Shown here in pieces: positions 5,935 through 59,377 of a stretch of DNA of 64,000 nucleotides. Each line of letters opens with the position of its first letter. Within the stretch, counting starts at the first letter, position 1. Origin of the DNA: Eledone cirrhosa (lineage: Eukaryota); the NCBI GenBank assembly GCA_964016885.1, contig OZ024742.1, positions 270,072,001-270,136,000 of the forward strand, given 5' to 3'. Position numbers and translations under genes: made by a program. A model generated the notes under the pieces. That model had not been told where the DNA came from. It did no database searches and saw nothing but the letters and a program-made list of their open reading frames with translations.

Positions 5935-5997
5935 ATTATATTTTGTCTGATGAGGACGTACTATTGTACATCCGAAATATGTATAATAAAATGTAAT
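5935..5997 (+). ncRNA. Type I hammerhead ribozyme within a ~240-bp insert between (TA)n tracts
   Basis: AUUAUAUUUUGU CUGAUGA GGAcGUAC-UAUU-GUACaUCC GAAA UAUGUA UA^ AUAAAAUGUAAU. 12-bp helix I including G-U pairs, canonical core, short quasi-palindromic helix III. Confidence 0.85.
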
Positions 5998-6766: not shown

Positions 6767-7074
6767 TATTGTGTGGCGACAGTCAAGGAAGCTAGATTTA
6801 ACACCCTTCTAGCGGGTCCGGGTAAGTTTTTTACATTCATTTAAATTATTGATTTATTGATATTTTATTTGAGTGAGCCGAATCTTCCTGGTCGTTCTTT
6901 TTCGGCTGTACGGGTGATTTTAGGCATAATCTATGTGTTGGTAATTTAACGATGGTTATAGCTCTGATTTATTCAAATCATTGAGCCCTCTGCCACTCAT
7001 ATCGGATATTGTTTATCGTTAATTCGTGTGCTGATTTTCCGATACTCGATTATTCTATTATATATATATATATA

Positions 7075-7437
7075 TATTGGTAAACGGAATAGAAAATGCT
7101 GACAAATTGTTCACAGTTGAAAAATGGTTTAATTAGGAATAAAAGAGTATTAGTGATTGTATGGGTTAGTATTCAGTTGTGGTTTTAAGTTTTTTAGTTT
7201 CTACCGGTTGCGCATTTCTAAATGCTTTTCAAAAATAATTTTGAGATAGAGTGTCCGTGCTGTTTGCTCTTATCAGAGCAAACAGCACGGACACTCTATC
7301 TCAAAATTAGAAACTAAAAAACTTAAAACCACACCTGAATACTAACCCATACAATCACTAATACTCTTTTATTCCTAATTAAACCATTTTTCAACTGTGA
7401 ACAACTTGTCAGCATTTTCTATTCCGTTTACCAATAT
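7075..7437. repeat. Fold-back (near-perfect palindrome) with a degenerate HHR in the left arm only
   Basis: 7075-7201 plus 7236-7269 are the reverse complement of 7276-7437. The unpaired 34 nt (7202-7235) read on the minus strand UUU UUGAAAA GCAUU-UAGA-AAUGC GCAA CCGG UA. Confidence 0.9.
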
Positions 7438-7469
7438 ATAATAACTTATGTGTTACACCTCTATTCTTT

Positions 7470-7701: not shown

Positions 7702-7739
<38 letters not shown>

Positions 7740-7761
7740 GTGTATATATATATATATATGG

Positions 7762-7800
<39 letters not shown>

Positions 7801-8028
7801 GAAACACACAGATACATGCGGACACACACATATACATGAATGCATCCGCACCCAACTGTGAGTTAAGGGTGCCAACTTCACCGATGTTGCTCGATGAATG
7901 ACTGGGACAGACCAATCCGTTTGAACTAGACTGAACCAGTATCAGAGTTAAAAATACATTATGAAGAGAGAAGAAAGATTTAGATATAATTAGTAATAAA
8001 ATGTATCATACCTAAACTGCTCCTAGAT

Positions 8029-8118
8029 TCCTCGACTACGTAGTTTCGTGGCATAAACAAAAACAATACATCATAAAGCTATAGAGTCCTTGCGAGGTCT
8101 GACGACTTATCAAGAGGA
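8029..8118 (-). ncRNA. Hammerhead ribozyme, U3-A8 variant (593-bp unit copy 1)
   Basis: UCCUC UUGAUAA GU...AC GAAA CUACGUAG UC^ GAGGA; one helix II mismatch (GUCA against UGCC). Confidence 0.75.
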
Positions 8119-8621
8119 TTCCTCATTTTACTAGTCTCAAGAACGCGTCTACACGACGTGAGAAAGAATCCCAAAAGGCGGAGGGGGAGATAGTCACGGG
8201 ATATAACGGTCGAGAAACAGAGCTAAGCCTCTTATAACCCCGAAGAAAATACCACGGAGGCGGAGGGGGTATTTATATCGAAGCCGTAGAAGAGGTGGTG
8301 AAGGAGGCGAGAAGTATGAGTAATGGAAGCTTTCCAGCAGTCCCCACACTTCAAAGATTGCTCGACCAGAGGGAGTTATTAACAATATATTTAGAAACAC
8401 ACAGATACATGCGGACACACACATATACATCAATGCATCCGCACCCAACCGTGAGTTAAGGGTGCCAACTTCACCGATGTTGCTCAATGAATGACTGGGA
8501 CAGACCAATCCGGTTGAACTAGACTGAACCAGTATCAGAGTTAAAAATACATTATGAAGAGAGAAGAAACATTTAGATATAATTAGTAATAAAATGTATC
8601 ATACCTAAACTGCTCCTAGAT

Positions 8622-8711
8622 TCCTCGACTACGTAGTTTCGTGGCATAAACAAAAACAATACATCATAAAGCTATAGAGTCCTTGCGAGGTCTGACGACT
8701 TATCAAGAGGA
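8622..8711 (-). ncRNA. Hammerhead ribozyme, U3-A8 variant (copy 2)
   Basis: Identical to copy 1. Confidence 0.75.
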
Positions 8712-9214
8712 TTCCTCATTTTACTAGTCTCAAGAACGCGTCTACACGACGTGAGAAAGAATCCCAAAAGGCGGAGGGGGAGATAGTCACGGGATATAAC
8801 GGTCGAGAAACAGAGCTAAGCCTCTTATAACCCCGAAGAAAATACCACGGAGGCGGAGGGGGTATTTATATCGAAGCCGTAGAAGAGGTGGTGAAGGAGG
8901 CGAGAAGTATGAGTAATGGAAGCTTTCCAGCAGTCCCCACACTTCAAAGATTGCTCGACCAGAGGGAGTTATTAACAATATATTTAGAAACACACAGATA
9001 CATGCGGACACACACATATACATCAATGCATCCGCACCCAACCGTGAGTTAAGGGTGCCAACTTCACCGATGTTGCTCAATGAATGACTGGGACAGACCA
9101 ATCCGGTTGAACTAGACTGAACCAGTATCAGAGTTAAAAATACATTATGAAGAGAGAAGAAACATTTAGATATAATTAGTAATAAAATGTATCATACCTA
9201 AACTGCTCCTAGAT

Positions 9215-9304
9215 TCCTCGACTACGTAGTTTCGTGGCATAAACAAAAACAATACATCATAAAGATATAGAGTCCTTGCGAGGTCTGCCGACTTATCAAG
9301 AGGA
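9215..9304 (-). ncRNA. Hammerhead ribozyme, U3-A8 variant (copy 3)
   Basis: UCCUC UUGAUAA GUcGGCA...UGCCAC GAAA CUACGUAG UC^ GAGGA. Confidence 0.8.
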
Positions 9305-9869
9305 TACCTCAATTTACTAGTCTCAAGAACGCGTCTACACGACGTGAGAAAGAATCCCAAAAGGCGCAGGGGGAGATAGTCACGCGATATAACGGTCGAG
9401 AAACAGAGCTAAGCCTCTTATAACACCGAAGAAAATACCACGGAGGCGGAGGGGGTATTTATATCGAAGCCGTAGAAGGGGTGGTGAAGGAGGCGAGAAG
9501 TATGAGTAATGGAAGCTTTCCAGCAGTCCCCACACTTCAAAGATTGCTCGACCAGAGGGAGTTATGTGTGTGTCCGCATGTATCTGTGTGTTTCTAAATA
9601 TATTGTTAATAACTCCCTCTGGTCGAGCAATCTTTGAAGTGTGGTGACTGCTGGAAAGCTGCCATTACTCATACTTCTCGCCCCCTTCACCACCTCTTCT
9701 ACGGCTTCGATATAAATACCCCCTCCGCCTCCGTGGTATTTTATTCGGGGTTATAAGAGGCTTAGCTCTGTTTCTCGACCGTTATATCGCGTGACTATCT
9801 CCCCCTCCGCCTTTTGGGATCCTTTCTCACGTCGTGTAGACGCGTTCTTGGGACTAGTAAAATGAGGTA

Positions 9870-9959
9870 TCCCCTTGATAAGTCGGCAGACCTCGCAAGG
9901 ACCCTATATATTTATGATGTATTGTTTTTGTTTATGCCACGAAACTACGTAGTCGAGGA
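9870..9959 (+). ncRNA. Hammerhead ribozyme, U3-A8 variant (copy 4, inverted arm)
   Basis: Same motif; helix I 5' strand is UCCCC (one mismatch). Confidence 0.75.
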
Positions 9960-10462
9960 ATCTAGGAGCAGTTTAGGTATGATACATTTTATTACTAATT
10001 ATATCTAAATGTTTCTTCTCTCTTCATAATGTATTTTTAGCTCTGATACTGGTTCAGTCTAGTTCAACCGGATTGGTCTGTCCCAGTCATTCATTGAGTA
10101 ACATCGGTGAAGTTGGCACCCTTAACTCACGGTTGGGTGCGGATGCATTCATGTATATGTGTGTGTCCGCATGTATCTGTGTGTTTCTAAATATATTGTT
10201 AATAACTCCCTCTGGTCGAGCAATCTTTGAAGTGTGGGGACTGCTGGAATGCTTCCATTACTCATACTTCTCGCCTCCTTCACCACCCCTTCTACGGCTT
10301 CAATATAATTACCCCCTCCGCCTCCGTGGTATTTTCTTCGGGGTTATAAGAGGCTTAGCTCTGTTTCTCGACCGTTATATCGCGTGACTATCTCCCCCTC
10401 CGCCTTTTGGGATTCTTTCTCACGTCGTGTAGACGCGTTCTTGAGACTAGTAAAATGAGGTA

Positions 10463-10552
10463 TCCTCTTGATAAGTCGGCAGACCTCGCAAGGACTCTAT
10501 ATCTTTATGATGTATTGTTTTTGTTTATGCCACGAAACTACGTAGTCGAGGA
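10463..10552 (+). ncRNA. Hammerhead ribozyme, U3-A8 variant (copy 5, inverted arm)
   Basis: UCCUC (10463-67), UUGAUAA (10468-74), GUcGGCA..UGCCAC, GAAA (10534-37), CUACGUAG, UC^ (10547), GAGGA. Confidence 0.82.
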
Positions 10553-13499
10553 ATCTAGGAGCAGTTTAGGTATGATACATTTTATTACTAATTATATCTA
10601 AATCTTTCTTCTCTCTTCATAATGTATATATATATATATGTATATATGTATATATATGTATATACATATATGTATATATATGTATATATATATGTATATA
10701 TGTATATATGTATATAGGTATATATATATATGTATATATACTGTCAAAATACAGACGTGACTTGGGTACTTTTATATGTTTGCCCTCATACAAGCAGACG
10801 ACTTTTCGTTTGAAGTGGAGACACGAATCTTAGGAATGATTTAAACGCATTGCCTGTATTGCCTTTACCGTCTGCTACAGAGCTACATATGTGATCGATA
10901 GTGATGTTCAACTACCTACAGCTAAATATTTTCTCACCTCACCAGTCCTTATTATATAATGACTTCAAATAAAATCGATGCTTATATATATTTTTGTTTG
11001 CATATGTAGTTATTCAAACAAACCTGTGTATCTATTACATTGTGAGTCGTGGTCGATTTCTGTACTCGCATACATTATAAGATGACAGCACATAGTTACC
11101 TCCGTAATGTTTTTCCTCAAGTTGGTTCCAGAGTATCTACTGAATCCCATTGTTTGTTCTGTTTGTTTATTGCCAATAAATGGTGGCTCGACAATTACAG
11201 ATCTATGGATTCTGTAGCTCACTTAATGAGATAAATATTGGAGTGAACATCATGATAGAGTGAAAACCTTTCAAAGGATTGCGCAGTTAATATAACATTC
11301 TGGTAACTGAAGCCCGTAAAAGCACTAATGAGCAAATGATTTTATAAGATAATTCATATGGAACTTAACTTCTAAACATCCAAACAACAATCAATCCCTC
11401 ATCGAAAGAAATGTCCAATGAGCATGTTTGATCCACTAGCTATCTATTCAACTATCTCACAGCCTACATGCTCATTTGTCACGTTGTTTTATATGTGTAT
11501 GTATATTCTGTTTTTTGCATGACCTCCCTATTATTGAATATATCCAGAACTCATGGTTTAGCATATTTGTGTTATCTAGTATCATTCAATGCATTGTTTG
11601 TTGCCAATGTGGGAGCCACTATTCAGTGCCTTGACCTACATTTCGTGGGCAAATCTTCCACAAATCACGCCCAAATGTCTGTACAAAATGGGAGGAATCT
11701 ATCGATAACGTACTCTCTATATACGCTGTCTAAATAAATGTGAAATGAGATCATATTTGTGCTCTCGATTTGCTGATCTGAGCGTATATATAGATAAAAC
11801 CCTGATACAGAAAAAAGAAAATTTAACACGGAAATAAAATCCAAGCATTAACTTCGTCTACGTTATTAATTTCAAGGAGATGATTAAGTAAGAAACAAAT
11901 CAAATTATAAAACGGAAATAAATATAGTGAATACAAATAAATTTAAATGTTTCTATAAAGTCTTCATATCCTCAACGGTCTATATTGGCAATCACAATTA
12001 ACTGCCTTCTTAATGGTCTCAAATAAAACGATTCAGCATAATCTTCAGATTAACTGAGCGATTATCTATAATAGGATTCTCCACTCAGTCGGTTCACTTG
12101 AGTAAATTCACGTGACAATTGGTATCAATCTTAAAAAAAGCAAAGAAGTGAAAATGGAGGATAAAGAAGAGGAAGAAAGCGAACAGAGAGACGTTAATAC
12201 TGTAATATGCTAAGCAACGATATTGATATTGCATTTTTGGTCTGCTTAAAGAAACATTAAGATTGATTGCAAGTATTTATTATAATTCAGACACATATGC
12301 ATGCATATCAAGTCATATACATCCATTCACATATGTACGTATGTATGTATGTGTGTATGTTTGAATGTATATACACATGTATGTATGAATTTATGTATAT
12401 ATTTTACATGTATGTGAGTATTTGTATGAATGTTTGTATGCATATAGTTGTATGTAAGTATGCATGTTTGTATGTATGCATGTGTATGTGTGTGCATATA
12501 TATGTGTGTATGTGCTTATATTCATATAAGCATGTATGTGTGTAGATGGAACTTCCGTTGATTTCGAAGATGATCACACCAACATTCGTCTAAATGTGTT
12601 TTCAGATAATTCTCACATAGAATCACCATGACAAAATATAGGATAAGATTACAATTTTAATATGTACAATTAATACTACGAGTTTCCATGCTGCTAATAT
12701 CTACATAATTTCACTGAAAATCCCTAAGTTGACCTGTGTCTATGATTATGACTGCCTCAATAATAGAAGCAGCTGTCTCAACGCTATATATATGTAGATG
12801 CATATGTACGTGTTTTCGTGTATACGTTTTTATCATGCAGTGGTTTGCACTACTTTTACTTCAGCGACTCTGACCATTTGAAACATCATCTAAGAATTTA
12901 TCTTTACTTTGTGAAAGAGAGGTATCAATACTACAGACTTCATGTGCGTTATTTGTTGAGGTATGAATATTTCCCCGTTTCCAACTGTAGAATGCACAAC
13001 GTTTTAGCGTTTAGTACGTTTACATCCACTTCGCATAGGTCTGTCATATAATAAAAATAAAATAAAGTTACTGCTGATTTTAGTTCTATCCCCAGTTTGA
13101 GCACCTAGTATATTTGGTGAGATGCAATTACATCCAGCTTTAAATAACTCTCAATGTAGAAAGTTGATATTTATATCTTTCAATATATTTTATGTTATAT
13201 TTACACTCGAACTTCCTTGAAGTGTGGAACAAAACATTTTATAATATTCTCACTACGCTGAATTACTAATATCATATCTCTGCATATGTATATGTGTGTT
13301 TCGGTATGTGAGTATGTGATTTTATACATATAGTTATACATATTCTAGATAAAAGTATTCACTCATATGGCAGAAAAAATGTATGAACTCTGCAACCGTT
13401 CATCCCCCATGGAAAATGTTAATGGTAACACGTGAAAAAATTTGGTCTCAGTGAATGCAGAATAACTTTGCAAATTCACCACCAGCAGGTCTCCATACG

Positions 13500-15518: not shown

Positions 15519-15801
15519 TATAGTAAAATAAAACAAGGACGAGTGGTTACTCCTTCATTACTTTTAATGGTTGGTGACGCGCGTTTCGCCACTGATCTGG
15601 CCAATGTTTCGATGTGTAACGATCTAGCCTGACTCTGTAATCCACGGCTTGTCAGACCCCTTACAGTGATAATGGAAACATGACAGAGTCGGGCTCGATC
15701 GATACAGATCAAACGTTGAGCGAAACAGTGGCGAAACGCGCGTTACCAACCAATAAACGTAATGAAGGAGTAACCACTCGTCCTTGTTTTATTTTACTAT
15801 A
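15519..15801. repeat. Fold-back element, ~120-bp arms, HHR-bearing
   Basis: 15519-15640 is an imperfect reverse complement of 15682-15801; the right arm ends in (TA)n. Confidence 0.9.
15573..15658 (-). ncRNA. Type I hammerhead motif with long helix II insert (core mutated at G8)
   Basis: Minus strand: GGU CUGACAA GCC..~55 nt..GGC GAAA CGCGCG UC^ ACC; palindromic helix III ACGCGCGU. Confidence 0.65.
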
Positions 15802-16431: not shown

Positions 16432-16602
16432 TCATCGGTAGAGGGTCAGACGCCATGCTTTCTAGCATAGTTACGACCCTTTACAGTCTGATTTCAAATC
16501 ACACGGAGTTTAACTTTGACTTTCATCCTTACGGGGTCGATAAAATAAAGTACCAGTAATGCACTGGATAATTGCTGGCTTGTGCCAACAGTAGAAACAA
16601 TT
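16432..16602 (+). mobile_element. tRNA-derived SINE (5'-truncated)
   Basis: Matches the SINE at 1391-1582. Confidence 0.9.
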
Positions 16603-16656
16603 ATATTAGCTATGTTATGTCTGATGATAACTGCTAGGGATACCCATGTATTAAAA

Positions 16657-16692
<36 letters not shown>

Positions 16693-16773
16693 TATATTTT
16701 TGTATACATGGGTATCCCTAGCAGTCCTCATCAGACACAACATAGCTAATATAATTGTTTCTACTGTTGGCAC
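16582..16773. repeat. 70-bp inverted repeat centred on (TA)n; includes the SINE tail and a CTGATGA half-site
   Basis: 16582-16651 against 16704-16773. Confidence 0.9.
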
Positions 16774-17359: not shown

Positions 17360-17380
17360 ACATTAATAATCTCCTCACAA

Positions 17381-17802
17381 AAATGCGGAAGCTCAAAAGA
17401 GCCACGGAATGTTATCATAAACCTTCAAAAGTGTGGGACTAGAGTTGTTGCTCAAAAATATTGTAACCATTATCTATCGTGCACTCTGTGGCATCCTTTT
17501 ATATAAAAGAGACTCATAACGAACTCAAGACGACACGATAATTATTTAAGCTAATGTTCAATATCTCATATCAGATGTTTAGTAATGATTAATACGAAAT
17601 GCACTTAAACCGAATTCTATATTATAAATTCACTTAAATAATTATCATGTGGTCTTGAGTTCGTTATGAGTCTCTTTCTAATAAAAGGAAGCCACAGAGT
17701 GTACGATAGATAATGATTACAATATTTTTGAGCAACAACTCTAGTCCCACACTTTTGAAGGTTTATTATAACATTCCGTGGCTCTTTTGAGCTTGCGTAT
17801 TT
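17381..17802. repeat. Fold-back with ~170-bp arms directly upstream (minus-strand sense) of the HHR
   Basis: 17381-17550 against 17633-17802. Confidence 0.9.
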
Positions 17803-18689
17803 TTCAGGTCTAGTTTAATCTTTTTTAAGGCAACGCTTGTAATAACTCTAGTTAAACATGATATATATTAATAATAAATTATCGTTGTAATGTAATTAGA
17901 TTATATAATTGTTATTTTATAAATGATCTTATAAATATTATTGTAAGATGTTTAAAAATATTTTCAGACTTTTAATATAAACAACTACAAAAAACAATCA
18001 ATATTAAAAAAATATATTTTACATAATAATTGTTATAGTTGAATTAATCAAAATTAAATATTACATACAAATAGTATAACATAATACTAAAAAAAAATAA
18101 TCTAACATAATAATAATAAAATAATCTAACATGAAACGAACAATAATATGGACATATGTACAAGTAAATATGATACAACCAATATTCTAAGCATGTTATA
18201 ACGAGCTGAAAACATAGTTAATATAAATTTAAAAAAATCATATATAAATTAACAATATAACTTACCAAAACGAGAAAAATATTTTGATGATAAAACGACA
18301 AAATACAGGATAGAGATTCGAAATCGAAACGTTAAATAAACGTGCAAACAAAACGCTTTTGGGCAACAATTAGTCTCGTTGGTTGATTAGCCAATAAGAG
18401 GATGAAATTAGCCAATAAGACGATACATTACAAAACATGTTTGGAAGGAATCGCCACGGCCAGCAATACCCCTTGAATCTTTTATTCACAAGCTACACAT
18501 ATATTGTCAGACATGCAGACATAAAACATCCTGCTGTTAGTCACTGGGTGTTAATAGATAACGTACATGGTATCAGAACTTAGCGTGTCTCACAAACTCA
18601 CACCACAAAATCAGATCACAATGCCTAAGATAAAAAACTAATATATAGACAATATTCACTGATTGACACGTGTTTCCGGGTGGCCTAAA

Positions 18690-18940: not shown

Positions 18941-19478
18941 GTTGCTTATTAACAGACAAATAAGCTTGCAAGAAAATCTATCTCACTATTCTGATGGTTG
19001 CTTATTAACAGAGAAAAAAGTTTGCAGGAAAATCTCCCTCACTATTCTAATGGTTGCTTATTAACAGAGAAAAAAGCTTGCAGGAAAATCTCCCTCACTA
19101 TTCTGATGGTTGCTTACTAACAGACACAAAAGTTTGCTGGAAAATGTACCTTGCTATTCTGATTGTTGCTTATTAACAGACAAAAAATCTTGCATTAATG
19201 CACAATTTTACTTTTACTGAAACTAATTACAATATTGAAACATTTTCTGGGAAATAGCCCACATTGTCAAATAAGAATCCAGCAACCATCAGAATAGTGA
19301 GGGAGATTTTCCTGCAAGCTTTTTTGTCTGTTAATAAGCAACCATCAGAATAGCAAGGTAGATTTTCCAGCAAGCTTTTGTGTCTGTTAATAAGCAACCA
19401 TCAGAATAGTGAGGGAGATTTTCCTGCAAGCTTTTTTCTCTGTTAATAAGCAACTATCAGAATAGTGAGGGAGATTTT
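18941..19478. repeat. 56-bp minisatellite in two inverted arms
   Basis: Unit GTTGCTTATTAACAGAGAAAAAAGCTTGCAGGAAAATCTCCCTCACTATTCTGATG; ~4.5 copies at 18941-19195 and ~3.5 reverse copies at 19281-19478. Confidence 0.93.
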
Positions 19479-19862: not shown

Positions 19863-22356
<2,494 letters not shown>

Positions 22357-22425
22357 TATGAAGAGAGAAGAAACATTTAGATATAATTAGTAATAAAATG
22401 TATCATACCTAAACTGCTCCTAGAT

Positions 22426-22515
22426 TCCTCGACTACGTAGTTTCGTGGCATAAACAAAAACAGTACATCATAAAGATATAGAGCTTTTGCGAGGTCTGCC
22501 GACTTATCAAGAGGA
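22426..22515 (-). ncRNA. Hammerhead ribozyme, U3-A8 variant (copy 6)
   Basis: Same motif; core, helix I and helix III intact. Confidence 0.8.
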
Positions 22516-23018
22516 TACCTCGTTTTACTAGCTTCAAGAACGCGTCTACATGACGTGAGAAAGAATCCCAAAAGGCGGAGGGGGAGATAGTCACGCGATA
22601 TAACGGTCGAGAAACAGAGCTAAGCCTCTTATAACCCCGAATAAAATACCACGGAGGCGGAGGGGGTATTTATATCGAAGCCGTAGAAGAGGTGGTGAAG
22701 GGGGCGAGAAGTATGAGTAATGGCAGCTTTCCAGCAGTCACCACACTTCAAAGATTACTCGACCAGAGGGAGTTATGAACAATATATTTAGAAACACACA
22801 GATAGATGCGGACACACACATATACATGAATGCATCCACATCCAACCGTGAGTTAATGGTGCCAACCTTACCGATGTTGCTCAATGAATGACTGGGACAG
22901 ACCAATCCGGTTGAACTAGACTGAACCAGTATCAGAGTTAAAAATACATTATGAAGAGAGAAGAAACATTTAGATATAATTAGTAATAAAATGTATCATA
23001 CCTAAACTGCTCCTAGAT

Positions 23019-23108
23019 TCCTCGACTACGTAGTTTCGTGGCATAAATAAAAACAGTAGATCATAAAAATATAGAGCTTTTGCGAGGTCTGCCGACTTAT
23101 CAAGAGGA
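23019..23108 (-). ncRNA. Hammerhead ribozyme, U3-A8 variant (copy 7)
   Basis: Same motif; substitutions lie in the helix II insert. Confidence 0.8.
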
Positions 23109-23444
23109 TACCTCGTTTTACTAGCTTCAAGAACGCGTCTACATGACGTGAGAAAGACTACCAAAAGGCGGAGGGGGAGATATTCACGCGATATAACGGT
23201 CGAGAAACAGAGCTAAGCCTCTCATAACCCCGAAGAAAATACCACGGAGGCGGAGGGGGTATTTATATCGAAGCCATAGAAGAGGTGGTGAAGGAGGCGA
23301 CAGTATGAGTAATGGCAGCTTTCCAGCAGTCACCACACTTCAAAGATTACTCGACCAGAGGGAGTTATGAACAATATATTTAGAAACACACAGATAGATG
23401 CGGACACACACATATACATGAATGCATCCACATCCAACCGTGAG

Positions 23445-23503
<59 letters not shown>

Positions 23504-30908: not shown

Positions 30909-35375
<4,467 letters not shown>

Positions 35376-38281
35376 TAGAATGTTTCTACGTTGCTTGCCC
35401 ATCGAGCAGCATTGGTTCCCTCGTTTCTCAGAGCACGTGCCTTAGCTCTGACAATGCAACCTTCGTGTTTCGCATTGAAGAAAAGGTGTAATGCCATTCT
35501 GGCCGCTTGCACGTCAGTTGCAATGCCACTACAAATAGCCTCGTCTAACTTATCTACCAACAATCCTCCTTTCTGTTTTTCTCTAACGCTACTTCTTTGC
35601 TAAACCCTATCGACATGACTCTAATCTCTCATTTGAGTGCCCCTCACCATCTATTGTTGACGACTCACCCTGTCAATTTTTCTTAACTAAATTGTTGACT
35701 CGTTCCCTGTAAGCAAACGTGCTGGAAATGACATGTTCAGCATCCATAACAGGGTCCTAAATTACACGTCTAATCTAGGTCGATCATACAGATCACAAAC
35801 TTGTGATCTGAATAGGCGACCGTTTTAAAACGTGGACAGCTTACAGTATTTCTGTGTAATCTCCTAATGAATATCCTATCTATATACGTTTAAAATGACG
35901 CAATGCGGTTTGTCCTGGTTCACACTGGCGCATTAGGGAAATCTAGTTGGTACCTCTCAGACAGTTGAAACTGGCTGATCAGGTACTTGAGGCTTTTGCA
36001 CCCCCCGCTCCTATCGGATACACCCACACAGTCCCAGCATGCGTCTAAGATGCCGTTACAGTCCCCCGCTAACAGAAAAGGACGAGACGTACCCAGAAAG
36101 GCTTCCAGGCGTCTAAGGAAATCCGGCCCTCCTGCTCCAGTAGAGGCGTGGACGGCCACCAGTTTAAAGGCTGCAACTTAGATATTGTTCACGTCCAGGA
36201 CCACCAACTTAGCGTCTGGATCCTGGAAGATCGACCTTACCTCGATATCCAGGCCTTCATAAAAATGTACTGCCAACCCGCCTCCCATTCCCGGGCGACT
36301 AACACATGCGAATATCTGATAGTCGTCGAAAATCCTTGTCTCTCTGACGGCAATTACATCCATTTCTAGAGACATGAGGTCGTTGTGCAAGTGACCATGC
36401 TTCCAGGACGATCCAAGGCCTCGAGCAATTAAACTTCCTATTCTTAATACGGCCATGCTGGTAGGCTAAAAGAGAGAGGAAAGGTTTACTTACCTTCCGG
36501 GATCTTGTGAAGGTTGCCATGTTCGACCTCCATAGTTGGTGGGGTTTCTTTTGGGAACCCTTATACAAGTCTTGAAGTGGGTTTTACGTTCGGGTTACCC
36601 ACGTCCTGAGGAAAGCTGTCCTGTACCTCTTTGCATAAATCGAGCGACATTCGCACCAGAAACAAATCTTCCGTCATGCGAAATAAGCTCGATTTAAAAA
36701 TGTCCCCCTCTTTTTGTATTTGTTTAACTCGTGCTACGAGGGCCTTGTTGGTTCTCCTGACGAGGACGAAGTTTTGTATGTTTTGTTGGTGTGATTTTAT
36801 TTGTTTGCGTGGCTGTGGTGGTGATGGTTTTGATGGTGTTGTTTCGGTGTGTCTGTGTTTGTTGTAAGTGCGGTGTCTGTGGTTTCAGTTGTTTGTGTGT
36901 CCATTTTCTCTTGCGTCTGTTTAGGTTGCTTGCGTCTGGGGGATTCTGGTGATGGAGTTGGTGATGTTGATGTTGGTGTTGTTTTGGAGATGTTTGCGCG
37001 GGTGGTGTCTGTATGTTTTATTGTGGGTGTTTTTGTGCTTCGTTGATTTTTTTTTCTTTTTGTGTTTCTTTTTTTGTATTTTGGGGGATTTTGGTTTCCC
37101 TCATCTTCAGTACTGGTAGATGACGGGTCTACGTCTGTAAGTCTGTATGTGTTTGTGTGTGTGTTTATGTTTTTATTGATGTGTGTATTTTTGGATGGAG
37201 GAAGAGTTGGACAACTTTCCGCATCTCACCCCTGGGTGGTCAATGTTGGTGGTGGTGTTTCTATTGGTGTTGTTGCTGGTGATTTTACCGGTGCTAGTGT
37301 TGGTTGTGGTCCTCGCCCCGGCAGAAGTGGAGACCTTCGACCCCTTTCATGTTTCATAGCGAGGGCTTCAGACTTAAACAGCACCGAAATGGTGCCGCAT
37401 TGTCTGCCACTCGCTATCTATCGGTGTCTTCTGTGATGCACCTCAGTGTGACTTCGACATCTACTTGTGGAATTAAAGCTGCCCTCTTGGTTTCTGCTGA
37501 GATGCATCTGTAATGCACCGTTCTGCGCTCCACTGATTCAATAGCTTCTACCGGGACAGTTAAGTTGGTCCAGGTTTGCTCTTGCGTGATGAGCTTCCAG
37601 GCCTGGGCCAACTTTCATTTTTGTTCGAGAGGTCCATGCTGAAGCATGGCCTCTTTTTGGGTGCTGCCGCAGCGAAAGTGTTATTTTTGTTGTCGTTGGT
37701 AGTGTCGTTCTTATTTTCTTGTTGCTGTTATCACTGTTGCAGTTGGTAATATCTTTGGTGCCGCCATTGTTATTCTCGCTGCAGTTGGTATTGTTTCTGT
37801 TGTCGTTGTCGCTATTTGTTTTCATGTTAGTGGTGTTAATATTGTTGATGCATTTGTTGGCATTTTGTTCTGTTGTCTGTACTTTGGTTGTCGCTGATAC
37901 TGTTGTGGTTGGTGTGGTCATTTTTATCAAAATTAGTGTGCTCACTGTTGTTGTCATTGCTGTCTTTGTTCACGTTTGTGGTGGTGTTTTTTGTATCACT
38001 TTCTGTAAACCTCCTCTCAACTTTTACGCCGTTGTCACACGAGAGCAGACATATTGCTGGGTGGCGTGAATCAGCCATGCTTTCTCTTTTTTTTCTTTAT
38101 AATTTTTAAAAATAAAATGTTCAATTATTTGGGCCAAAATGCCCAAATATTATACTTTCCCTTTCACAGGGCAAAGTCAAAGGGCTTATATCATTTACAC
38201 AAGAAAGATTTTAGAACAAATAATTATAACAGGTAATCAAAGCGACTTACTCGGAGCGTGCAAAAAGACGTACGAACAGAC
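35376..38281 (-). mobile_element. L1/Tx1-like LINE copy B (5' UTR, ORF1 and endonuclease only)
   Basis: MAVLRIGSLIARGLGSSWK..DVIAVRETR and LLAGDCNGILD (APE motifs); T/N-rich ORF1 start at 38078; 5' end abuts (AAT)n. Confidence 0.85.

Positions 38282-38323
<42 letters not shown>
38282..38323. repeat. (AAT)n tract separating LINE copies (also 43910-43939, 48888-48989, 54732-54790, 59354-59372)
   Basis: Direct inspection. Confidence 0.97.
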
Positions 38324-38327
<4 letters not shown>

Positions 38328-41300
38328 TCTTTATTAACCACAAGGGCTTACATAAAGTAGACATGAATGAGAGTACAGGAAAATACATACAGGACGGTAC
38401 AAATGGGCATTTCTGCGTGTAAAAAAACACAAAAAACAGAGGATGTAACAAAAAAATAACAATGAAAAATGCCCCAATAGGGGGGAGATTTCCGACGGAC
38501 ATTAATGGAGAAAGCCCATTAAAAGGCTACAGTGACGCTGAACACCAGGGCAAGTGCCCTCTCCCAGTTTTCCACCTTTAATTTACAGACACATACTCTG
38601 AGTAGGCCCATTAACTCGGGACATACTTGCATCTCTCACCCATCTTTCAACAAAATGCTGGGAAAAGAGCACTTCCCTCTGAACCCTGATTTTCCTTTTC
38701 AAATGAAATTTGAAAAAGTTAATCAGGGCATCACCGAAGAGGTCAGTGCTCGTCTTCAGCCCTTTCAAACGTGTCCACCATACTATCTCTTTCACCATGG
38801 CCACCAGACAGATAAAAATTGCCTGCCCTTTCCGTCTAAAGGAGGAGGGCGGGGCCATACTCACGATGGACTCAGCTGATAGCCGGATCCGTCCTACACG
38901 TGACAGCAGGTGTTCGGCATAAACCCACAAGTCAGCAATGCTCGGACACTGCACGATGGCGTGCAAGACGGTTTCGTCGCCCTGCGCACATCTCGGACCT
39001 GCCCGGCTGACGGCACCTCCATCTTTGTAGAGTTTATCCCGAACTGGCAAAGTTCCTCGGTAGCACAGCCTGGCCAGGTATTTCTTGAAGTTGTCCATAG
39101 GCCCGGGCCCGAAAGTTCTTCCGAAGAGATTGGCTAGTTGTTTTTCGTCGATGCCTAGAATTTCTCCAAGTACGTCGTCGCTATTCCCCTCCACTAATCC
39201 TCTATAGAACGCTTAGGTGGAGTTTCCACCGATCACATTGCCCGATTATTCGAGAGCTGTGAGCGCCTGAAGACATTCCAGTCTCCAAGCGCTCCCTCTC
39301 GGTCTTCGCTTGACCCAGGACTGCAGCTCCGTCAAGGAGACGAGCTGGGGAAAGACGCGTCTAGCAAACGGCGACCTCACCTGATCACCGTCGAGGAAGA
39401 GGTGGAGATGTCGTAGCCTGAGCGCGTGTCTGCGTATCATCAGCCACGGCTTGCCCAGCCCTCTACGTAGCGGGTGTTGACAGCATTTGGACCGCCTGAC
39501 CATCGGAACGCTTCCCTTCCACAAAAAGCGAAAGAGCAAACGCTCCAGCGCAGTCAGGCAAGGCTTAGGACAAGGTACGACGGTTAGACGGTAGTAGATG
39601 ACGGACGCGATATACGCGTTAGCCACCTCCGCCCGACCTTTCAGGGACAGCTTCCTCTCCGCACATTTCTGGGTGAGAGAAGCCACCCTGCTGGTCCCCT
39701 CGTCCAAATTTTTCTCCATCTGAAGGTCTGGACCGAACCAGACCCCTAGTAATGTAACCGATCCGTCCGTCCAGCGCCCGACGACGCTGTTGGACGGCAT
39801 AGACCTGCCTCTCCAGGTGCCGAGCTGCAGGCCCACTGACTTTTCCTGGTTGATCATTGCTCCTGTCACCGCTTCGTATTCTCTTAGTGTAGTGCCGATC
39901 GCCTCGATGTATTTGGCGTTCGACACCACTACGGTAACATCGTCCGCATATGCTGACACGAATCTTCCACTTCCTAGTTCGCGCGGGATCCCTCTCAACG
40001 TCTCCAGTTTGTGCAGTAATGGCTCGAGAGTCAATATGTACAAGAGGGACGAGAGTGGACATCTTGGCGGACCGAGCGCATGATGTTGAACGGTTCCGAA
40101 AGGTGACCACACTCACCACAGAGCAGATGTCGCTGTGCATGCCAGCGATCCAGCCTCCGAAGACGGGCCCAAAGCCAGCCGCCCTCAGGACTGCTGCTAG
40201 GTAACGATGGTTGACCTATCGAAAGCTTTCGACTGATCTAAATTGATCAAGGACCCACCCGTGCCAAGTTACCTAACTACCCTCCCTACGATGCATTGCA
40301 TGAGGTGGAGGTTGTCGTGGATGAATTTGTCGGGAATGGCGCACGTCTGCGCCTCTTCCACCAGACCACCAACGACAAGCGCCAAACTCTTTGCTAGTAC
40401 CTTGGCCAAAATCTTGAACTCTGTGTTTAGCAGAGTTATGGGCCTGAAATTATCTATGTTATCCCCCTTATTCGGATCCTTTCTCAGCAGCTCTACAGCT
40501 CCTCGGCTCACAGAGCTGGGAATTCTCCCGTTCTGTTGCCAATTGCATTAGACGTCCGCCAACAGGCCTCTGAACAAGTCTGGCATATGTACGTAAAGTT
40601 CATAGAGCAGACCATCCAAACAAGGCGATTTACCCCTTGTGCAGCCAGTCATTGCCTCCCGTATTTCAGCGGCTGTTATCGGCTTTTCGCAACACTCCGC
40701 CTCAGTGGCCGAGAGCCGCAGCAGTCCGTTGAATTAGACACTGAAGTCCATCTCTCGATCCGGCCCGCCGCTGCCCTCCAACAGCTGGGCAAAGTGTCGC
40801 TGTAAAGCTTCACACATTTGCCCGGGATCGAGTAGCATGCGCCCGTCGTGGTCCACCAAAGACCGGATCGTGGCTTTGTTGACACGACGCGCCTCCGCCA
40901 CTCGGACCCATTGAACGGCTTTCGTCCCCTCGTGTCTGAGAGCACGCACCCTTGCTCTGACAACGCAGACTTCGTGCTTTGCATTGAAGAATTGGTCAAG
41001 GGTCGACTTCGCCGACTATCTTTAATTGTGGACAGCCGATGCTAGATCTATCTGTTTCCCTACAAAATACTCTATCTAGATATGATCTGGATGACCCTAT
41101 GCGATTTGTCCAAGTTCACATTGGCACATTCGGGAAATCCAATCGGTACCTGTCACAGTTCAAAACATCTGAGCAGGTTGGTGAGGCTCTTGCACCCTCC
41201 TCCCTTATCCGCTAATCCCGCACAGTCCCAGCGTGCATCTAAGATCCCGTTCCAGTCGCCCACTAACACTAAAGAACGGAACGTTCCAAGAAAGGTCTCC

Positions 41301-43909
41301 AGACGCCGGAAGAAATCAGGCCGGCCTGCTCCTGTCTGGACATAGACGGCCACTAACCTGAAAGCTTGCCCATCTCCGCTGGTCACGTCCAGCACCACAA
41401 AGGTACCTTCTGGGTCCAGGAAGATGGCCCGTATGGCGAGATCCAAACCTCTCCGAAAAAGCACAGCAAATCCTCCCTCCGATCCGGACGGCTGGGAGAT
41501 GCGTACACAACGTATCCGTCAAAGATCGGTGCGAAGGCCCGTGCTTCGGAGATTCTGGTCTCGCTGATGGCTACTACATCTATGTTTAGTGATCTGAGGT
41601 CGTTGAGCAGGTGGCCCTGCTTCCATGACGACCCCAAGCCACGCATTTATGCTGCCTTTTCTGAGTGAGGTCATGTTGAAAAGGAGTGGAAAATATGGGA
41701 AAGACGACTTACCTTACTTGTCGTAGAGGAAGGATGGTGTGTTCATCCTTTTCACTACTTGTGGCCTCGTCCGGAAGGATATCCTTATAAATCCTCCTGG
41801 AGAGTGCTTGTCGGAAGTCTCCGATGTCTTTGGGGAATTTTTGTTTTAGTGTCGTGTATCTTTTCTGTGTGATGCGAGTGATTTGCATGTGTGGAGTTGG
41901 TGTGAACTTTTGGGTTGTTGTGTAGTCTTTTTCTGTGATGCTGGTGTTGTGTTGGATGTAGTGTAATAATTGGTTGTTGTTCAAATGTAATGCTGTGTAG
42001 TGTGTATCGTTTTGGTTGTTTTGTTTTGTTTCGTTTGTTGTGGGTTTGTTTCTGTTTCGCTTGTTGGTGACTTTTGTGGTGTTAGTGATGGTGGTGTTGG
42101 GGTAAATGATGGTGATGGTGTTGGTGTTTGTGGTGATGGCGTTGGTGATGCTGGTGTGGATGGTGGCATAGCTGTACTAACTTTTTTGTTTGATAGTTTA
42201 TTTGTTTCCCTCTGTATTTTGTTTTTGGAGGGGGAAGGAAGAGAATTTTTTCTTTTTTGGTTTCTTTTTTTTTTCCGGATATCGTTTCCCACTCCTCCTC
42301 GTCACAATCTGTCTCCAGTTGTGATAGGCCGGGGAGTGGAAAATCCTCCACAGCCGTTAGTTTTGGTTGTGGTGTGGTGGATGGTGTAGGCGCTGGTGCT
42401 AGTTCTGAAGCGTTGGGTGGTGGTGGTGTTGGTTTTGCTGGTGGTGGTAGTGGTGTTGGTTTTGCTACTGTTGCTGGGATTGTTGCTGTTATAGTTGCTT
42501 CTGTTGTTGCTGCTACAGTTGTTGCTGCCATCTCTGCTACTGGTGGTGTTGATGGTTGTGTCACTGGGGTGGGTAGGAGAGGTGGCCTCAACTTTTTAGC
42601 CTGAGGGCAGAAAGCCCTTAGGTGGGTTCCTTCACCACAAACGACACACCTAGGTCTTCTGCCCTCGACAATTACCGTGAGGTGGCTGCCGTCAGTGAGG
42701 TCTATTACCTCTGGGATCTCCTCAATGCTTTTTTGGTCCGCTTGGATCAGGAGCTCCATCCCAGATCCGGACCAGTTTTCCTGCTTTTCTTTTGCTACTG
42801 CTATTATTTTCGTGTTGGCTTCGATGCCGGCGAGGACAGCCGCTATTAGCCAGGGAATTTCGATGGCCGGTGGAACGTGGGTCACCCTGATCTTTACGAG
42901 TCTCTGGCCACAATAGCTTGGGACGAGTGTGAGGTCGTCACTTTTTAATGGGGCCATGGATTTTTCTCTAGCCTCCACTGGTGTTTCAAAGAACACATCC
43001 ACGGTTCCATACTTTTGCCCACGTCTGATGTGGGTTTTTCTTGCCCACACATGTCGCAAAGCTTTTTGGATTTGGGACTCGGATGCCCGTTCCACTCGGC
43101 GCAATTTTACATTTATTGTTCTATACGACACGGTGCACAGGCGCCGATGCTCCATTTTATTAGGTGGGGGGGGGGAGGCTGACCCTGTACCCATCTTTCT
43201 TTACCATTTGTTTGGCATTTTCTAAATCTTCTTGAGTTACCGTGAACGCTTCGAATTGTTTTGCTACGATGGCGAAACTGAGGGTCGGTTTTATAATGTC
43301 ATTGTTGTTGTTGTTGCTATCGTTATTTGTGTTAATCTTAATTTTTGTTTCAGTTGTGGTGGTGGTGACGTCATTCGTCTTTGGTGCGGAAGAGTCCATT
43401 TTGCTTGATTTCATTTCGACATCACGAGTTAATTTATTTTTTTCTTCTTTTGTTTCTGTTGTCGCGGTGGTGGTGGGGGTGGTGGTTGTTGCGGTGGTGG
43501 TGGTGGTGGAGGCTTTAACACCTGCAGTCATTGGTAATGGCGGGAAATGAATGTCTGCCTGAGACAAATTTAAAATATTGCTACTGCTTATATTTTTTTT
43601 GTGTTGGTAAACGTAGTAACATTTACAATGGTGGTGTCTGTGTGAGGTGTTATTTTGTGAGGAAGGCTTTCAGCTGCTTCGTGCAGAGGGGAATTAGCCA
43701 TTTTTTTTCAAAGAAATTTTTGGATAATAATAAAAGTTAAAATTTTGGGCACAAGGCCCCAATCTTTTTGGGTGTCCTTTTCGGAAAACAATGTATGTGT
43801 GCTTATAAACAGTTAACAATAACATTTTCCATAAATGGCAATTTTTAACAAACGGAAATAACAAACCTTTGCGGAGCTCACGATGATACGATTTACTACG
43901 TAGGTCGCC
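38324..43909 (-). mobile_element. L1/Tx1-like LINE copy C, both ends present, frameshifted
   Basis: ORF1 with CX2CX4HX4C knuckle (CVVCGEGTHLRAFC, 42082-43194). ORF2 APE (ISETR, LVGDWNGILD), RT (NFRPITLLNTEFKILAKVL, SAYADDVTV) and C-terminal zinc motif. AATAAA at the 3' end; (AAT)n on both sides. Confidence 0.93.
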
Positions 43910-47643: not shown

Positions 47644-47659
47644 AATTGATTAGGTTAGG

Positions 47660-48890
47660 AATTGATAAGGTCTGAGTACGTAAAAAGAGTAAGGAGCATA
47701 TTAAAATCACATCTAAATAGTAGGAATGTCATCAGTGCAGTGAATTCGCAAGCTGTGTCTATTATTAGGTACAGTGCGCGAATTCTGAAATGGAATGTTG
47801 CTGAACAAAAGGAAATGGATAGGAACACTAGGAAGCTATTAATTATCTACAGCATATTCCACAAGAGGAGTGATGTCGATATACTCTACTTAAGGAGATC
47901 TGAAGGTGGAAGAGGTCTTATCAACATAGAGGACTTGTTCAGATGGAGAAAGACAACCTGCACAAATACGTGACCGACAGTAGGGGGCCAATGCTCATAA
48001 TTGTACTGAAGGAGAGAACAATAGACCAGGAGATGTCCAAGGAAGAAATAACAACAAGGAGGAAGAGCAACCTTCATGAAAAATCCGTCCATATTACCTT
48101 CTTTGAGAAAACAGAATTTAGAAATCCACAGACATGGAACTGGTTAAAAAGAGGAAACCTTAAAAAGGCTTCAGAAGGAATGCTAATGGCTACGCAAGAG
48201 CAGGCACTTAATACGAAGTTGTTGAACCACCATATTTACAAGGAGGAGGCTAGCCCACTATGTAGGATCTGTGGAGAGAGAGAGGAGACTGTGGCTCACA
48301 TTGTATCCGAGTGTACACACCTAGCCCAGACTCACTATAAAGGCTGCAGACGTGATGTGATGGGCTGGGTGATCCACTGGCACCTATGCAAAGTAAACAA
48401 TTTACCACATTCTGAGAAGTGGTATGAGCATAAGCCAGAGTCGCTGATAGAAAACGATCAGGTGAAGGTGCTGTGGGATTTCAGAATATAGACGGATAAG
48501 AAACTGGAACACAATAGGCATGACCTGGTGGTTTTGGACAAGAATACAAGATCGTGCCTGATTGTAGATGTAGCCTTTAATTTGACACGAGAGTGCTAGA
48601 AAAGGAGAGGGAGAAAATTAACCGATACTAGGACTTAAAATGGGAGGTAAAAAGGATTTGGAACTGCCATGAAGTCATAGGCGCACTAGGTACTATCTCA
48701 AAGAGTTTTCAAGGAGGGTTAAAGAAAGTTAGTCCAGCCCCGCTTTTTGGAATAGTTCAAAAAGGCATGCTTGTTGGGAACAGCAAGAACCCTGCGATAC
48801 GTCCTGAATATCCTAGGCTGCAGGTAGCGGCTTGATATTCATTTAAAAAAACTTTCCAGTTAAATAACATCAAATAGACTCAAAGAACAA
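47660..48890 (+). pseudogene. 5'-truncated R4/Dong-like LINE copy with (AAT)n tail
   Basis: Collinear with 58090-59340. Confidence 0.93.
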
Positions 48891-48909
48891 TAACAATAAT
48901 AATAATAAT

Positions 48910-48989
<80 letters not shown>

Positions 48990-50214
48990 GGGAAGAAGAC
49001 GCACGAGGTGGTAGACTGTCATGAAATCGCTCCCGCAAGTTTTGAATTTTTAACATATTTAAATCATTTGTGAAATATCAACTCTTAGTACAAATGCTAC
49101 GTAAAGCATCCGGCTTGAGCCCCAAAAAAATTCGGACCCAAAATATATTGTTATAAGGCTCAAATATTCAAATATTCAACTTTGTATTGTACATTGTATA
49201 TTCAAAAAAAAAATGGCTATAAATGGAAGAAGAAGAACCCCCCATCCTCTGTCTACACTATATAGGACAGCCAAACAACACCAATCTCACCAACACCAGA
49301 AACTAGATACACCGCCTACCCCATCACCTCTCTGTGTACACTAAACACAATAGCCAGATAACGGCAATTTCACCACCACCACAACCAATCTCAACATAAT
49401 AATGATAATAATAAATACTATTATTATTGTCCCAAGTTTTAACAACATGTTTAACCCCATAGATTCACCGAACGGACATCAGTAACGACAACGCCGCCCA
49501 TCCATCATTACTACCACTATCCCATCACCGCCACCACCACTCCTTCATTGCTACCACCGCTAAAACACCACCATCACTAAAGTAATACGACCACATCACC
49601 ACCACCACTGCCATCATTACTACCACTATCCCATCACCGCCGCCACCACTCCTTCATTGCTACCACCGGTACAACACCATCACTACAGTAATACGATCAC
49701 ATCACCACTACCTCAGTATTGACATCACCACCACCACTGTCTCACTATCGCTACCGCCGCTATTCTCTCCCATTGCTTCCAGCTAGTTGCTGCCACCACA
49801 TTATAGAATTCCTACTAAAAAAGAGGAAGGCATCAAAATATATAGATACACTCAAAAGAAAAAAAGAAAAACAAACATCAAAACCAAAGCAGCACAGCAA
49901 CAACAGCAAAAAAAAGAGAAAAAACAAACAGAGAAAAACAAAAACAAAAAAAAAACGTAAAGAAAATAAGAATGAAAAGAGAAACAAGCGGATGGACAGA
50001 GAAGAGAAGGGAAAAACTAAGTCAGAGATTCAAACACTACATTACAATGAAACTTATGCTTATTCATTTTTGTTTTTTTTTCTGCCTGTGTGTTTGATTG
50101 TTTATTTGTGTTCGTCTACAGCGTGGTGATAATGCCACACAAGAGCCCAGTGGAGCGGCGCAACCACCGGAGACGGTGAATCCACAGATGGCTATGTAAC
50201 CATACATTCGCCAA

Positions 50215-54200: not shown

Positions 54201-54730
54201 CTGGCACCTGTGCAAAGTAAACAATTTACCACATTCTGAGAAATGGTATGAGCATAGGCCAGAGGCGGTGATGGAGAACGATCAGGTGAAGGTGCTGTGG
54301 GATTTTAGGATACAGACGGACAAGAAACTGGAACACAATAGACCTGACCTGGTGGTTGTGGACAAAGACAAAAGATCGTGTCTGATTGTGGATGTGGCCT
54401 GCCCATTTGACACGAGAGTGCAAGAGAAGGAGAGAGAGAAAATTAACCGATACCAGGACTTAAAGTGGGAGGTAAAAAGGATTTGGAACTGTCATGAAGT
54501 CAAAGTGATCCCGATTGTCATAGGAGCACTGGGGACTGTCTCCAAAAGTTTCCAGGGATGGTTAAAGAAAATCGGCCCCTTCACGCTTTTTGGAACGCTT
54601 CAAAAGGCATGCTTGCTGGAAACAGCAAGAACCCTCCGATATGTCCTGAATATCTGAGGCTGCAGGTAGTGGCTTGATATTCATTCCAACGGACTTTCCA
54701 GTTGACTAACCTCAATGACTGAGATTCAAG

Positions 54731-54789
<59 letters not shown>

Positions 54790-54790
<1 letters not shown>

Positions 54791-59372: not shown

Positions 59373-59377
59373 ATTTA

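What the first reader, a model, noticed from the sequence alone, without database searches (positions are those of the whole stretch)
10463..10552. Compensatory U3-A8 core and perfectly palindromic helix III
Seen: the core is UUGAUAA rather than CUGAUGA, so exactly positions 3 and 8 have both changed. Helix III is the 10-nt palindrome ACUACGUAGU. Core and helix III are invariant in all 7 copies, while differences fall mostly in the helix II insert. Established: C3-G8 form a tertiary Watson-Crick pair and U3-A8 preserves it; palindromic helix III permits dimeric (double) hammerheads. Inference: the ribozyme was selected for activity and may cleave best when two monomers of a tandem transcript pair. 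The large helix II insert could be a tertiary-contact or protein-binding module.
Basis: partly seen in the sequence, partly recalled or inferred. Interest (0 to 1): 0.75.

Follow-up and report, generated by a model that had tools for sequence, protein, structure and literature searches.

The report
Dimer-type hammerhead in Penelope-derived repeat
This is a known variant of the hammerhead RNA motif, carried by about 6,000 copies of a small protein-less repeat; it is predicted to cut only when two copies pair, and one lone copy is likely spliced, uncut, onto the front of a host gene's messenger RNA.

Summary
Confirmed: a type I hammerhead at 10463-10552 with a U3-A8 core, a 59-nt helix II and a 10-nt palindromic helix III. 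It sits in a 593-bp ORF-less unit with 5,968 genomic motif matches. Copies sit in (TA)n as tandem, head-to-head arrays with two fixed 3' ends, the architecture of Penelope-like elements (PLEs). U3-A8 and dimer-forming palindromes are both published for PLE hammerheads, and this scan noted what looks like this family before (e1-9595527). Invariance in the seven window copies is chance-compatible (P=0.13). Against older subfamilies, 0 of 43 ribozyme positions changed versus 38 of 131 others (P=8e-6). Within the family positions 3 and 8 do not covary (23 single changes, no C3-G8); the C-G/U-A swap shows only between families. Folding predicts a weak monomer helix III and a double hammerhead for the dimer. 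New here: a conserved splice donor 22 nt past the cut site. One contig of an unlabelled, probably RNA, run joins it, across the uncut site, to an Anp1-family gene 3.7 kb from a lone copy. A helix I-helix II pseudoknot is possible but unproven. Cleavage is untested and the mobilising PLE unidentified.

The parts
10463..10552 (+). Type I hammerhead motif, U3-A8 core (target copy)
10468..10474 (+). Core U3-U4-G5-A6-U7-A8-A9
   Evidence: 5,945 of 5,968 genomic matches are U3-A8
10475..10533 (+). Helix II, 59 nt: 6-bp bulged proximal stem, asymmetric internal loop, distal hairpin
   Evidence: pair probabilities 0.89-1.0 except the two core-proximal pairs at 0.16; one-sided changes in 11 of 16 distal pairs
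10537..10546 (+). Helix III, 10-nt perfect palindrome; predicted 10-bp intermolecular helix in the dimer
   Evidence: self-duplex -12.9 kcal/mol versus hairpin +0.8
10547..10548 (+). Predicted cleavage site after GUC (C17)
   Evidence: hammerhead consensus; cleavage not tested
10457..10461 (+). GAGGU, 5' half of a possible helix I-helix II pseudoknot; can alternatively hairpin with the 5' strand of helix I
   Evidence: unchanged between subfamilies; 92.7% of cells paired, no two-sided change
10483..10487 (+). ACCUC in the helix II internal loop, 3' half of the possible pseudoknot
10569..10575 (+). Splice donor AG|GTATGA, 22 nt after the cut site
   Evidence: GT kept in 107 of 112 distinct copies; X4 contig leaves the element exactly here and resumes at a host acceptor
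9977..10040 (+). Candidate 64-nt intron of the full unit (branch-like TACTAAT, pyrimidine tract, AG); cut short by the element end in the 10156-10627 unit
   Evidence: AG kept in 41 older-type and 1 of 75 young-type matches; internal splicing not seen
9563..10627 (+). Plus arm of a head-to-head insertion: 1.8 units of the 593-bp monomer, ending at unit position 472 before (TA)n
7792..9565 (-). Minus arm of the same insertion: 3 tandem units, ending at unit position 41 before (TA)n; hammerheads at 8029-8118, 8622-8711, 9215-9304
9870..9959 (+). Upstream tandem hammerhead copy (helix I mismatch at 9873)
22351..23447 (-). Second insertion of the family, about 1.85 units; hammerheads at 22426-22515 and 23019-23108
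7703..7797 (.). (TA)n flank at the left end of the insertion
10625..10740 (.). (TA)n-like flank at the right end of the insertion

Best explanation
The motif is a U3-A8 type I hammerhead in a 593-bp protein-less repeat that is likely a non-autonomous Penelope-like retroelement (non-LTR retrozyme), and it is predicted to cut mainly when two copies pair through the palindromic helix III. Inferred cycle: a tandem array is transcribed; neighbouring motifs form a double hammerhead and release unit-length RNA, which is probably circularised; an autonomous PLE reverse transcriptase/GIY-YIG enzyme nicks (TA)n and primes at two TA-like sites (unit positions 472 and 41-46), giving tandem arms and head-to-head insertions. 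Copies ending at 472 keep the splice donor but lose the acceptor 6 nt further on, so a lone copy can splice into a downstream host exon; being alone it would stay largely uncut. Shown: sequence, copy number, insertion architecture, conservation, one junction contig. Inferred: cleavage, dimer dependence, circle, identity of the mobilising enzyme, RNA nature of run X4.
For: 5,968 matches, 0 in the control. No substantial ORF in the unit. Of 80 distinct insertions 44 are head-to-head, 29 of these with one end of each class, and 98 of 107 such ends abut TA runs; Craig et al. describe this tandem/inverted/tail layout and (TA)n bias for PLEs. Runs of up to 5 same-strand motifs at 591-bp spacing need a more-than-unit template. 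Old versus young subfamilies, copies chosen by a flank motif only (26 usable of 30): 0 of 43 ribozyme positions versus 38 of 131 others, P=8e-6. The trans-dimer minimum-energy fold is the double hammerhead (-67.3 versus 2 x -26.8); intermolecular helix III p about 0.85 in the tandem transcript, monomer helix III p 0.08; the circular unit lacks the active fold. Only 3 of 100 helix III shuffles gave as much dimer gain. An autonomous PLE of the same genome (L071, 938 aa, GIY-YIG over and RVT_1 just under Pfam cut-off) has a U3-A8 hammerhead with a palindromic helix III in both terminal repeats. Junction contig.
Against: No cleavage, circle or RNA end was observed. No DNA similarity was found between the unit (young or old) and any sampled autonomous PLE family, so PLE descent rests on architecture. 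No two-sided change in any helix within the family, and the covariation score is not above shuffles. A 3-bp helix III with a 4-nt loop is longer than in amphibian dimer-dependent motifs, and a coral retrozyme monomer cleaves at about 0.8 per min, so monomer cleavage is possible. In the tandem fold of this locus only part of the double hammerhead forms. The junction is one contig of one run whose kind is not on record; internal splicing of the 64-nt intron was not seen.
Confidence: 0.78

Rival explanations
1. Same element, but the hammerhead cleaves efficiently as a monomer, helped by a 5-bp pseudoknot between the strand 5' of helix I and the helix II internal loop; the palindrome is an ancestral leftover.
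For: A 3-bp helix III can form; both pseudoknot halves are unchanged between subfamilies (0 of 10) and 92.7% paired; about 40% of hammerheads use such a pseudoknot (PMC3088659).
Against: Monomer helix III is +0.8 kcal/mol, p 0.08; the four loop bases that pair only in the dimer are as conserved as the stem; a contig from a lone copy spans the cut site; pseudoknot P=0.06 with no two-sided change.
Confidence: 0.13
2. The unit is the detached terminal repeat (pLTR) of an autonomous PLE that I did not sample, and the arrays are truncation products rather than a self-standing retrozyme.
For: Promoter-like motifs, hammerhead, donor and two 3' ends resemble the pLTR layout of L071; only 150 of 10,596 GIY-YIG candidates were scored.
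Against: In the family loci mapped the unit continued into another unit, a TA run or unrelated flank; in the 35 loci translated nearby PLE ORFs were on the other strand or downstream; tandem units join precisely every 591-593 bp in young and old subfamilies.
Confidence: 0.06
3. A satellite spread by DNA-level recombination in TA microsatellites, with an inactive hammerhead look-alike.
For: No Rfam hit; fold z -1.2; no activity data.
Against: Dispersal over many chromosomes with fixed 3' ends and variable 5' truncation and inversion; ribozyme positions spared over about 20-25% divergence.
Confidence: 0.03

Closest known systems
PLE hammerheads with U3-A8 core (Schistosoma mansoni Cercyon family; Cervera and De la Pena 2014, PMC4209133; parts 1-2 of 4 read, supplements not read)
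   Same: Type I, U3-A8, 5-bp helix I, enlarged helix II with a bulge, palindromic helix III, predicted dimer activity
   Different: Helix II is 59 nt rather than 7-8 bp; helix III is a 10-nt palindrome rather than minimal; carried by an ORF-less unit, not a pLTR flanking an ORF
Metazoan non-LTR retrozymes (Cervera and de la Pena 2020, PMC7229834, passages; Li et al. bioRxiv 10.64898/2026.07.22.740005, parts 1-2 of 5)
   Same: Non-coding tandem units each with a type I hammerhead; dispersed monomers, dimers and multimers; unit length within the reported 51-972 bp; proposed PLE origin
   Different: U3-A8 core; head-to-head insertions with two fixed ends in (TA)n; a splice donor after the ribozyme; circles not shown here
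EN+ PLE insertions (Neptune, Hydra, Naiad; Craig et al., bioRxiv 10.1101/2021.04.23.441226, passages)
   Same: Partial tandems, inverted 5'-truncated arm, a tail on one end, (TA)n bias, intron in the terminal repeat region
   Different: Tail is about 165 nt, not 30-40; no ORF; no sequence link to a sampled family
Natural U3-A8 and pseudoknotted hammerheads (Perreault et al. 2011, PMC3088659; section 8 and passages)
   Same: U3-A8 covariation; possible stem I-stem II pseudoknot
   Different: Here the pseudoknot partner would lie in an internal loop of a long helix II, and is unproven

Membership tests
Type I hammerhead ribozyme | Core 3-UGA-N-8-A ... GAA, A15.1-U16.1, H17 with a Watson-Crick 3-8 pair | tested here: met
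   U3-A8 in 5,945 of 5,968
Type I hammerhead ribozyme | Three helices around the core, helix I open | tested here: met
   helix I p about 0.9, helix II p 0.89-1.0 (closing pairs 0.16), helix III weak as monomer and strong as dimer
Type I hammerhead ribozyme | Compensatory changes in the helices | tested here: inconclusive
   0 two-sided changes in 47 sequences; catalytic helices are nearly invariant
Type I hammerhead ribozyme | Match to an Rfam hammerhead model | tested here: not met
   the long insert and U3-A8 core may explain the miss (inference)
Type I hammerhead ribozyme | Self-cleavage at H17 | not testable with these tools
   contigs show no RNA ends
Non-LTR retrozyme | Non-coding tandem units each with a type I hammerhead, dispersed in the genome | tested here: met
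Non-LTR retrozyme | Transcribed | tested here: inconclusive
   run X4 looks like RNA by depth ratio and a GT-AG junction, but its kind is not on record
Non-LTR retrozyme | Unit-length circular RNA | not testable with these tools
   tandem genomic copies mimic a circle junction
Non-autonomous Penelope-like element | Tandem and inverted insertions, 5' truncation, tail at one end, microsatellite target | tested here: met
   description
Non-autonomous Penelope-like element | Sequence homology to the pLTR of an autonomous PLE | tested here: inconclusive
   none among 80 GIY-YIG and Hydra-like loci; sampling is a small part of more than 10,000 candidates
Autonomous Penelope-like element | RT plus GIY-YIG ORF | tested here: not met
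   no ORF in the unit

The most novel reading that the evidence does not exclude
The unit is a mobile promoter/first-exon cassette whose ribozyme counts copies: it cuts in tandem transcripts but is silent when alone. Copies ending at position 472 lose their splice acceptor and act as natural gene traps, placing an intact, uncut hammerhead in host mRNAs (as at the Anp1-family gene on C22), where pairing in trans with other family transcripts could switch cleavage on; a pseudoknot from the long helix II tunes the switch.
Probability: 0.2. Interest if true: 0.7.

Novelty: new member of a known kind. Interest (0 to 1): 0.38.

Why it matters
The two headline features are in print, so they are not surprising by themselves. 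The value is as a test system. A young, 6,000-copy, 593-nt substrate with two fixed paired ends makes the poorly understood PLE insertion mechanism and the role of PLE hammerheads testable. The lone copy spliced to a host gene offers an in vivo test of dimer-dependent cleavage and a possible route by which ribozymes enter host 5' UTRs.

Tried and rejected
Rfam: no hammerhead hit (the miRNA hits are TA-repeat artefacts). Coding: no ORF in the unit. Autonomous partner: no similarity to 30 + 20 GIY-YIG loci or 30 Hydra-like loci; L056 and L194 merely contain insertions of the family; Pfam found nothing in the L101 and L094 frames, so 'Hydra-like' rests on recalled motifs. Other families sharing helix III: one search returned 5 matches, all rearranged family copies. 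Double changes in helix III: 12 matches versus 19 in the control, none of this family. C3-G8 copies: none among 18 non-U3 matches across subfamilies. Intron-less genomic copies: 0 of 113. Internal splicing: no such joint. No RNA holder listed; this blank is not evidence. The first conservation test was biased by its search pattern and was replaced. A 6-versus-6 cross-family P value is not used, because the families were hand-counted, partly pre-filtered for Watson-Crick pairs and related. Lunse et al. 2017 was not held, so its variants could not be compared; I know it only through PMC6765202. Searches listed no paper describing this family or a PLE hammerhead exon spliced to a host gene; unread supplements of PMC4209133 and the 2026 preprint could hold it.

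Full report
Observation. The motif is present as described: helix I 10463-10467 with 10548-10552, core UUGAUAA, a 59-nt helix II, GAA, helix III ACUACGUAGU and C17 at 10547. Seven copies lie in two insertions: a head-to-head array (7792-9565 minus, 9563-10627 plus) and 22351-23447 minus. Core and helix III are invariant in 7 of 7, but only 39 of 426 well-aligned columns vary, so this has P=0.13. Helix II is somewhat enriched in differences (10 of 59, P=0.047). One copy has a helix I mismatch and two break a proximal helix II pair. Rfam does not recognise the motif and its fold z-score is -1.2.

What carries it. The unit is 593 bp with no substantial ORF. The genome is an unnamed 3.0-Gb animal assembly. 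The best-scoring copies are 97-98% identical and lie on many contigs (only 40 of 1,646 candidates scored). A 24-nt motif gives 5,968 matches and 0 in the control. Among 80 distinct insertions, 44 are head-to-head. Outward 3' ends fall at unit position about 472 (66), about 44 (41) or elsewhere (17); 29 of the 44 pair one end of each class, and 98 of 107 such ends abut TA runs. Partial tandems, an inverted truncated arm, a one-sided tail and (TA)n bias are the described signature of Penelope-like elements (bioRxiv 10.1101/2021.04.23.441226, passages). Tandem ORF-less units with type I hammerheads are non-LTR retrozymes (PMC7229834, passages), proposed to be non-autonomous PLE derivatives (bioRxiv 10.64898/2026.07.22.740005, parts 1-2 of 5).

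Positions 3 and 8. Genome-wide, 5,945 of 5,968 matches are U3-A8; 11 differ at 3 only and 12 at 8 only, none at both. A looser pattern covering older subfamilies gave 18 non-U3 copies, all A8. So there is no covariation inside the family. Between families there is. Autonomous PLEs of this genome carry U3-A8 with an ACCGGU palindrome: L071 has it in both terminal repeats around a 938-aa RT/GIY-YIG frame, and L086, L087 and L089 have it too. Other families have C3-G8 (L081, L088, window 5947, and a Hydra-like family with a roughly 95-nt helix II and an 8-nt palindrome). In the scan that allowed any 3/8 pair, 25 of 28 non-family hits were U-A or C-G; these are not independent events. Natural U3-A8 was reported in PMC3088659 (section 8), and about 1,300 U3-A8 PLE hammerheads in Schistosoma in PMC4209133 (parts 1-2 of 4), which also describes palindromic helix III and low dimer-dependent activity.

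Selection. Older subfamilies, 75-84% identical to the young unit, share the unit layout and both ends. I picked old copies by a 5' flank motif only (26 usable of 30; 3 failed the identity filter and 1 was a duplicate). Their majority base differs from the young copy at 0 of 43 ribozyme positions and 38 of 131 other positions (P=8e-6). This supports selection in the transposing lineage. It treats sites as independent and does not prove cleavage.

Dimer. As a monomer helix III is a 3-bp hairpin (+0.8 kcal/mol, p 0.08); as a self-duplex it is 10 bp (-12.9). The minimum-energy fold of two motifs is the double hammerhead (-67.3 versus twice -26.8). In the tandem transcript of this locus intermolecular helix III has p about 0.85, though only part of the double hammerhead forms. 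The circular unit is predicted to lack the active fold. Only 3 of 100 helix III shuffles matched the dimer gain. These are predictions; a tertiary-stabilised monomer is not excluded.

Helix II insert. It folds as a stable hairpin on an asymmetric internal loop. In 47 aligned copies 11 of 16 distal pairs vary on one side only, none on both, and the covariation score is not above shuffles. The loop holds ACCUC, complementary to GAGGU just 5' of helix I. Neither half changed between subfamilies (0 of 10, P=0.06). Stem I-stem II pseudoknots are common in hammerheads, so this is the likeliest tertiary contact, but it is unproven. Protein binding could not be tested.

Splice donor. A GT donor 22 nt after the cut site is kept in 107 of 112 distinct copies. 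A candidate 64-nt intron ends in AG in older copies, while most young copies have lost that AG. Run X4 (kind not on record) has a 1,396-nt contig at depth 182 that matches 10530-10569 and leaves exactly at the donor. Its continuation maps once in the genome, with one mismatch, right after a pyrimidine tract and TAG. A copy with a single hammerhead, ending at position 472, lies 3,690 nt upstream on the same strand, and its two differences from the window equal the contig's count of two. The exon holds a whole Anp1-family frame (PF03452, E=1.5e-52). Family depth in X4 is in the hundreds, like this single-copy exon, against about 100,000 in X1 and X2, which points to RNA. The contig runs 18 nt past the cut site, so some uncut RNA would exist; the fraction is unknown. 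This is one contig of one study. Whether the element supplies the start site is not shown, and splicing within the unit was not seen.

Mechanism and verdict. Most likely a non-autonomous PLE derivative whose dimer-dependent hammerhead releases unit RNA from tandem transcripts for circularisation and PLE-driven insertion into (TA)n (confidence 0.78). The mobilising family was not found among 80 sampled loci. Searches listed no paper on this family. Earlier scan notes, read after my analyses, describe what appears to be the same family (e1-9595527); they are unchecked and are not support. The headline features are known; the splice junction and the possible pseudoknot are the additions. New member of a known kind, interest 0.38.

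Noticed in passing
window 5937-5994 (+): A second, unrelated type I hammerhead with canonical C3-G8 core, 10-bp helix I and a near-palindromic 8-nt helix III, between (TA)n runs.
   Followed up: partly
window 7071-7440: Fold-back stub resembling by eye the terminal repeat of the PLE family in L077; its hammerhead-like motif is U3-A8 with GCAA in place of GAAA in both places.
   Followed up: partly
window 15519-15801, 16582-16773, 17379-17804, 18941-19478, 22139-22280: Further fold-back (inverted) insertions; a hammerhead-like C3-A8 motif with an 8-nt palindrome at 15655 minus.
   Followed up: no
L180:1501-2732 and L181 (G000 C22:8275794-8281130): Anp1-family glycosyltransferase frame contained in one exon, joined in run X4 to a lone family copy 3.7 kb upstream; I recall Anp1 mainly from fungi, so its origin in this animal may merit a look.
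   Followed up: partly
window 10400-10542, run X4 record 9: One contig at depth 3 has 28 differences, mostly T>C on the plus strand, as antisense A-to-I hyper-editing of the head-to-head double-stranded RNA would give; low depth, could be error.
   Followed up: no
run X5, loose end before window 10508; L181 after the family copy: A contig at depth about 212 joins the family's helix II to sequence matching by eye the reversed terminal repeat of the L071-type PLE; a possible template switch hinting at the mobilising family.
   Followed up: no
L168, L178: Another U3-A8 family with a roughly 56-nt helix II, a bulged helix I and a long near-palindromic helix III; similar sequence flanks several other loci.
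   Followed up: partly
L195-L223, about 700 nt after the query match: Very abundant Hydra-like PLE family whose 3' end carries a CCGAUGA (U4C) hammerhead with a roughly 95-nt helix II and an 8-nt palindrome, ending in (ATT)n (8 of 30 loci read).
   Followed up: partly
L071:1071 and 6050 (oriented), L086, L089, L077: In the Neptune-like families the GU of the cleavage triplet also reads as a possible splice donor, so cleavage and splicing might compete at one site; by eye only.
   Followed up: no
window 9609, about 10040, about 10120: TAACTC-like hexamer recurs just after both 3' end positions of the unit, and after the first end of a Neptune-like family; 5' inversion points cluster at unit positions 47-49.
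   Followed up: no
window 47657-64000 and 30911-43200: Tandem non-LTR retrotransposon copies (one 1,141-aa intact frame at 55837-59262) and degraded LINE-like frames on the minus strand.
   Followed up: no
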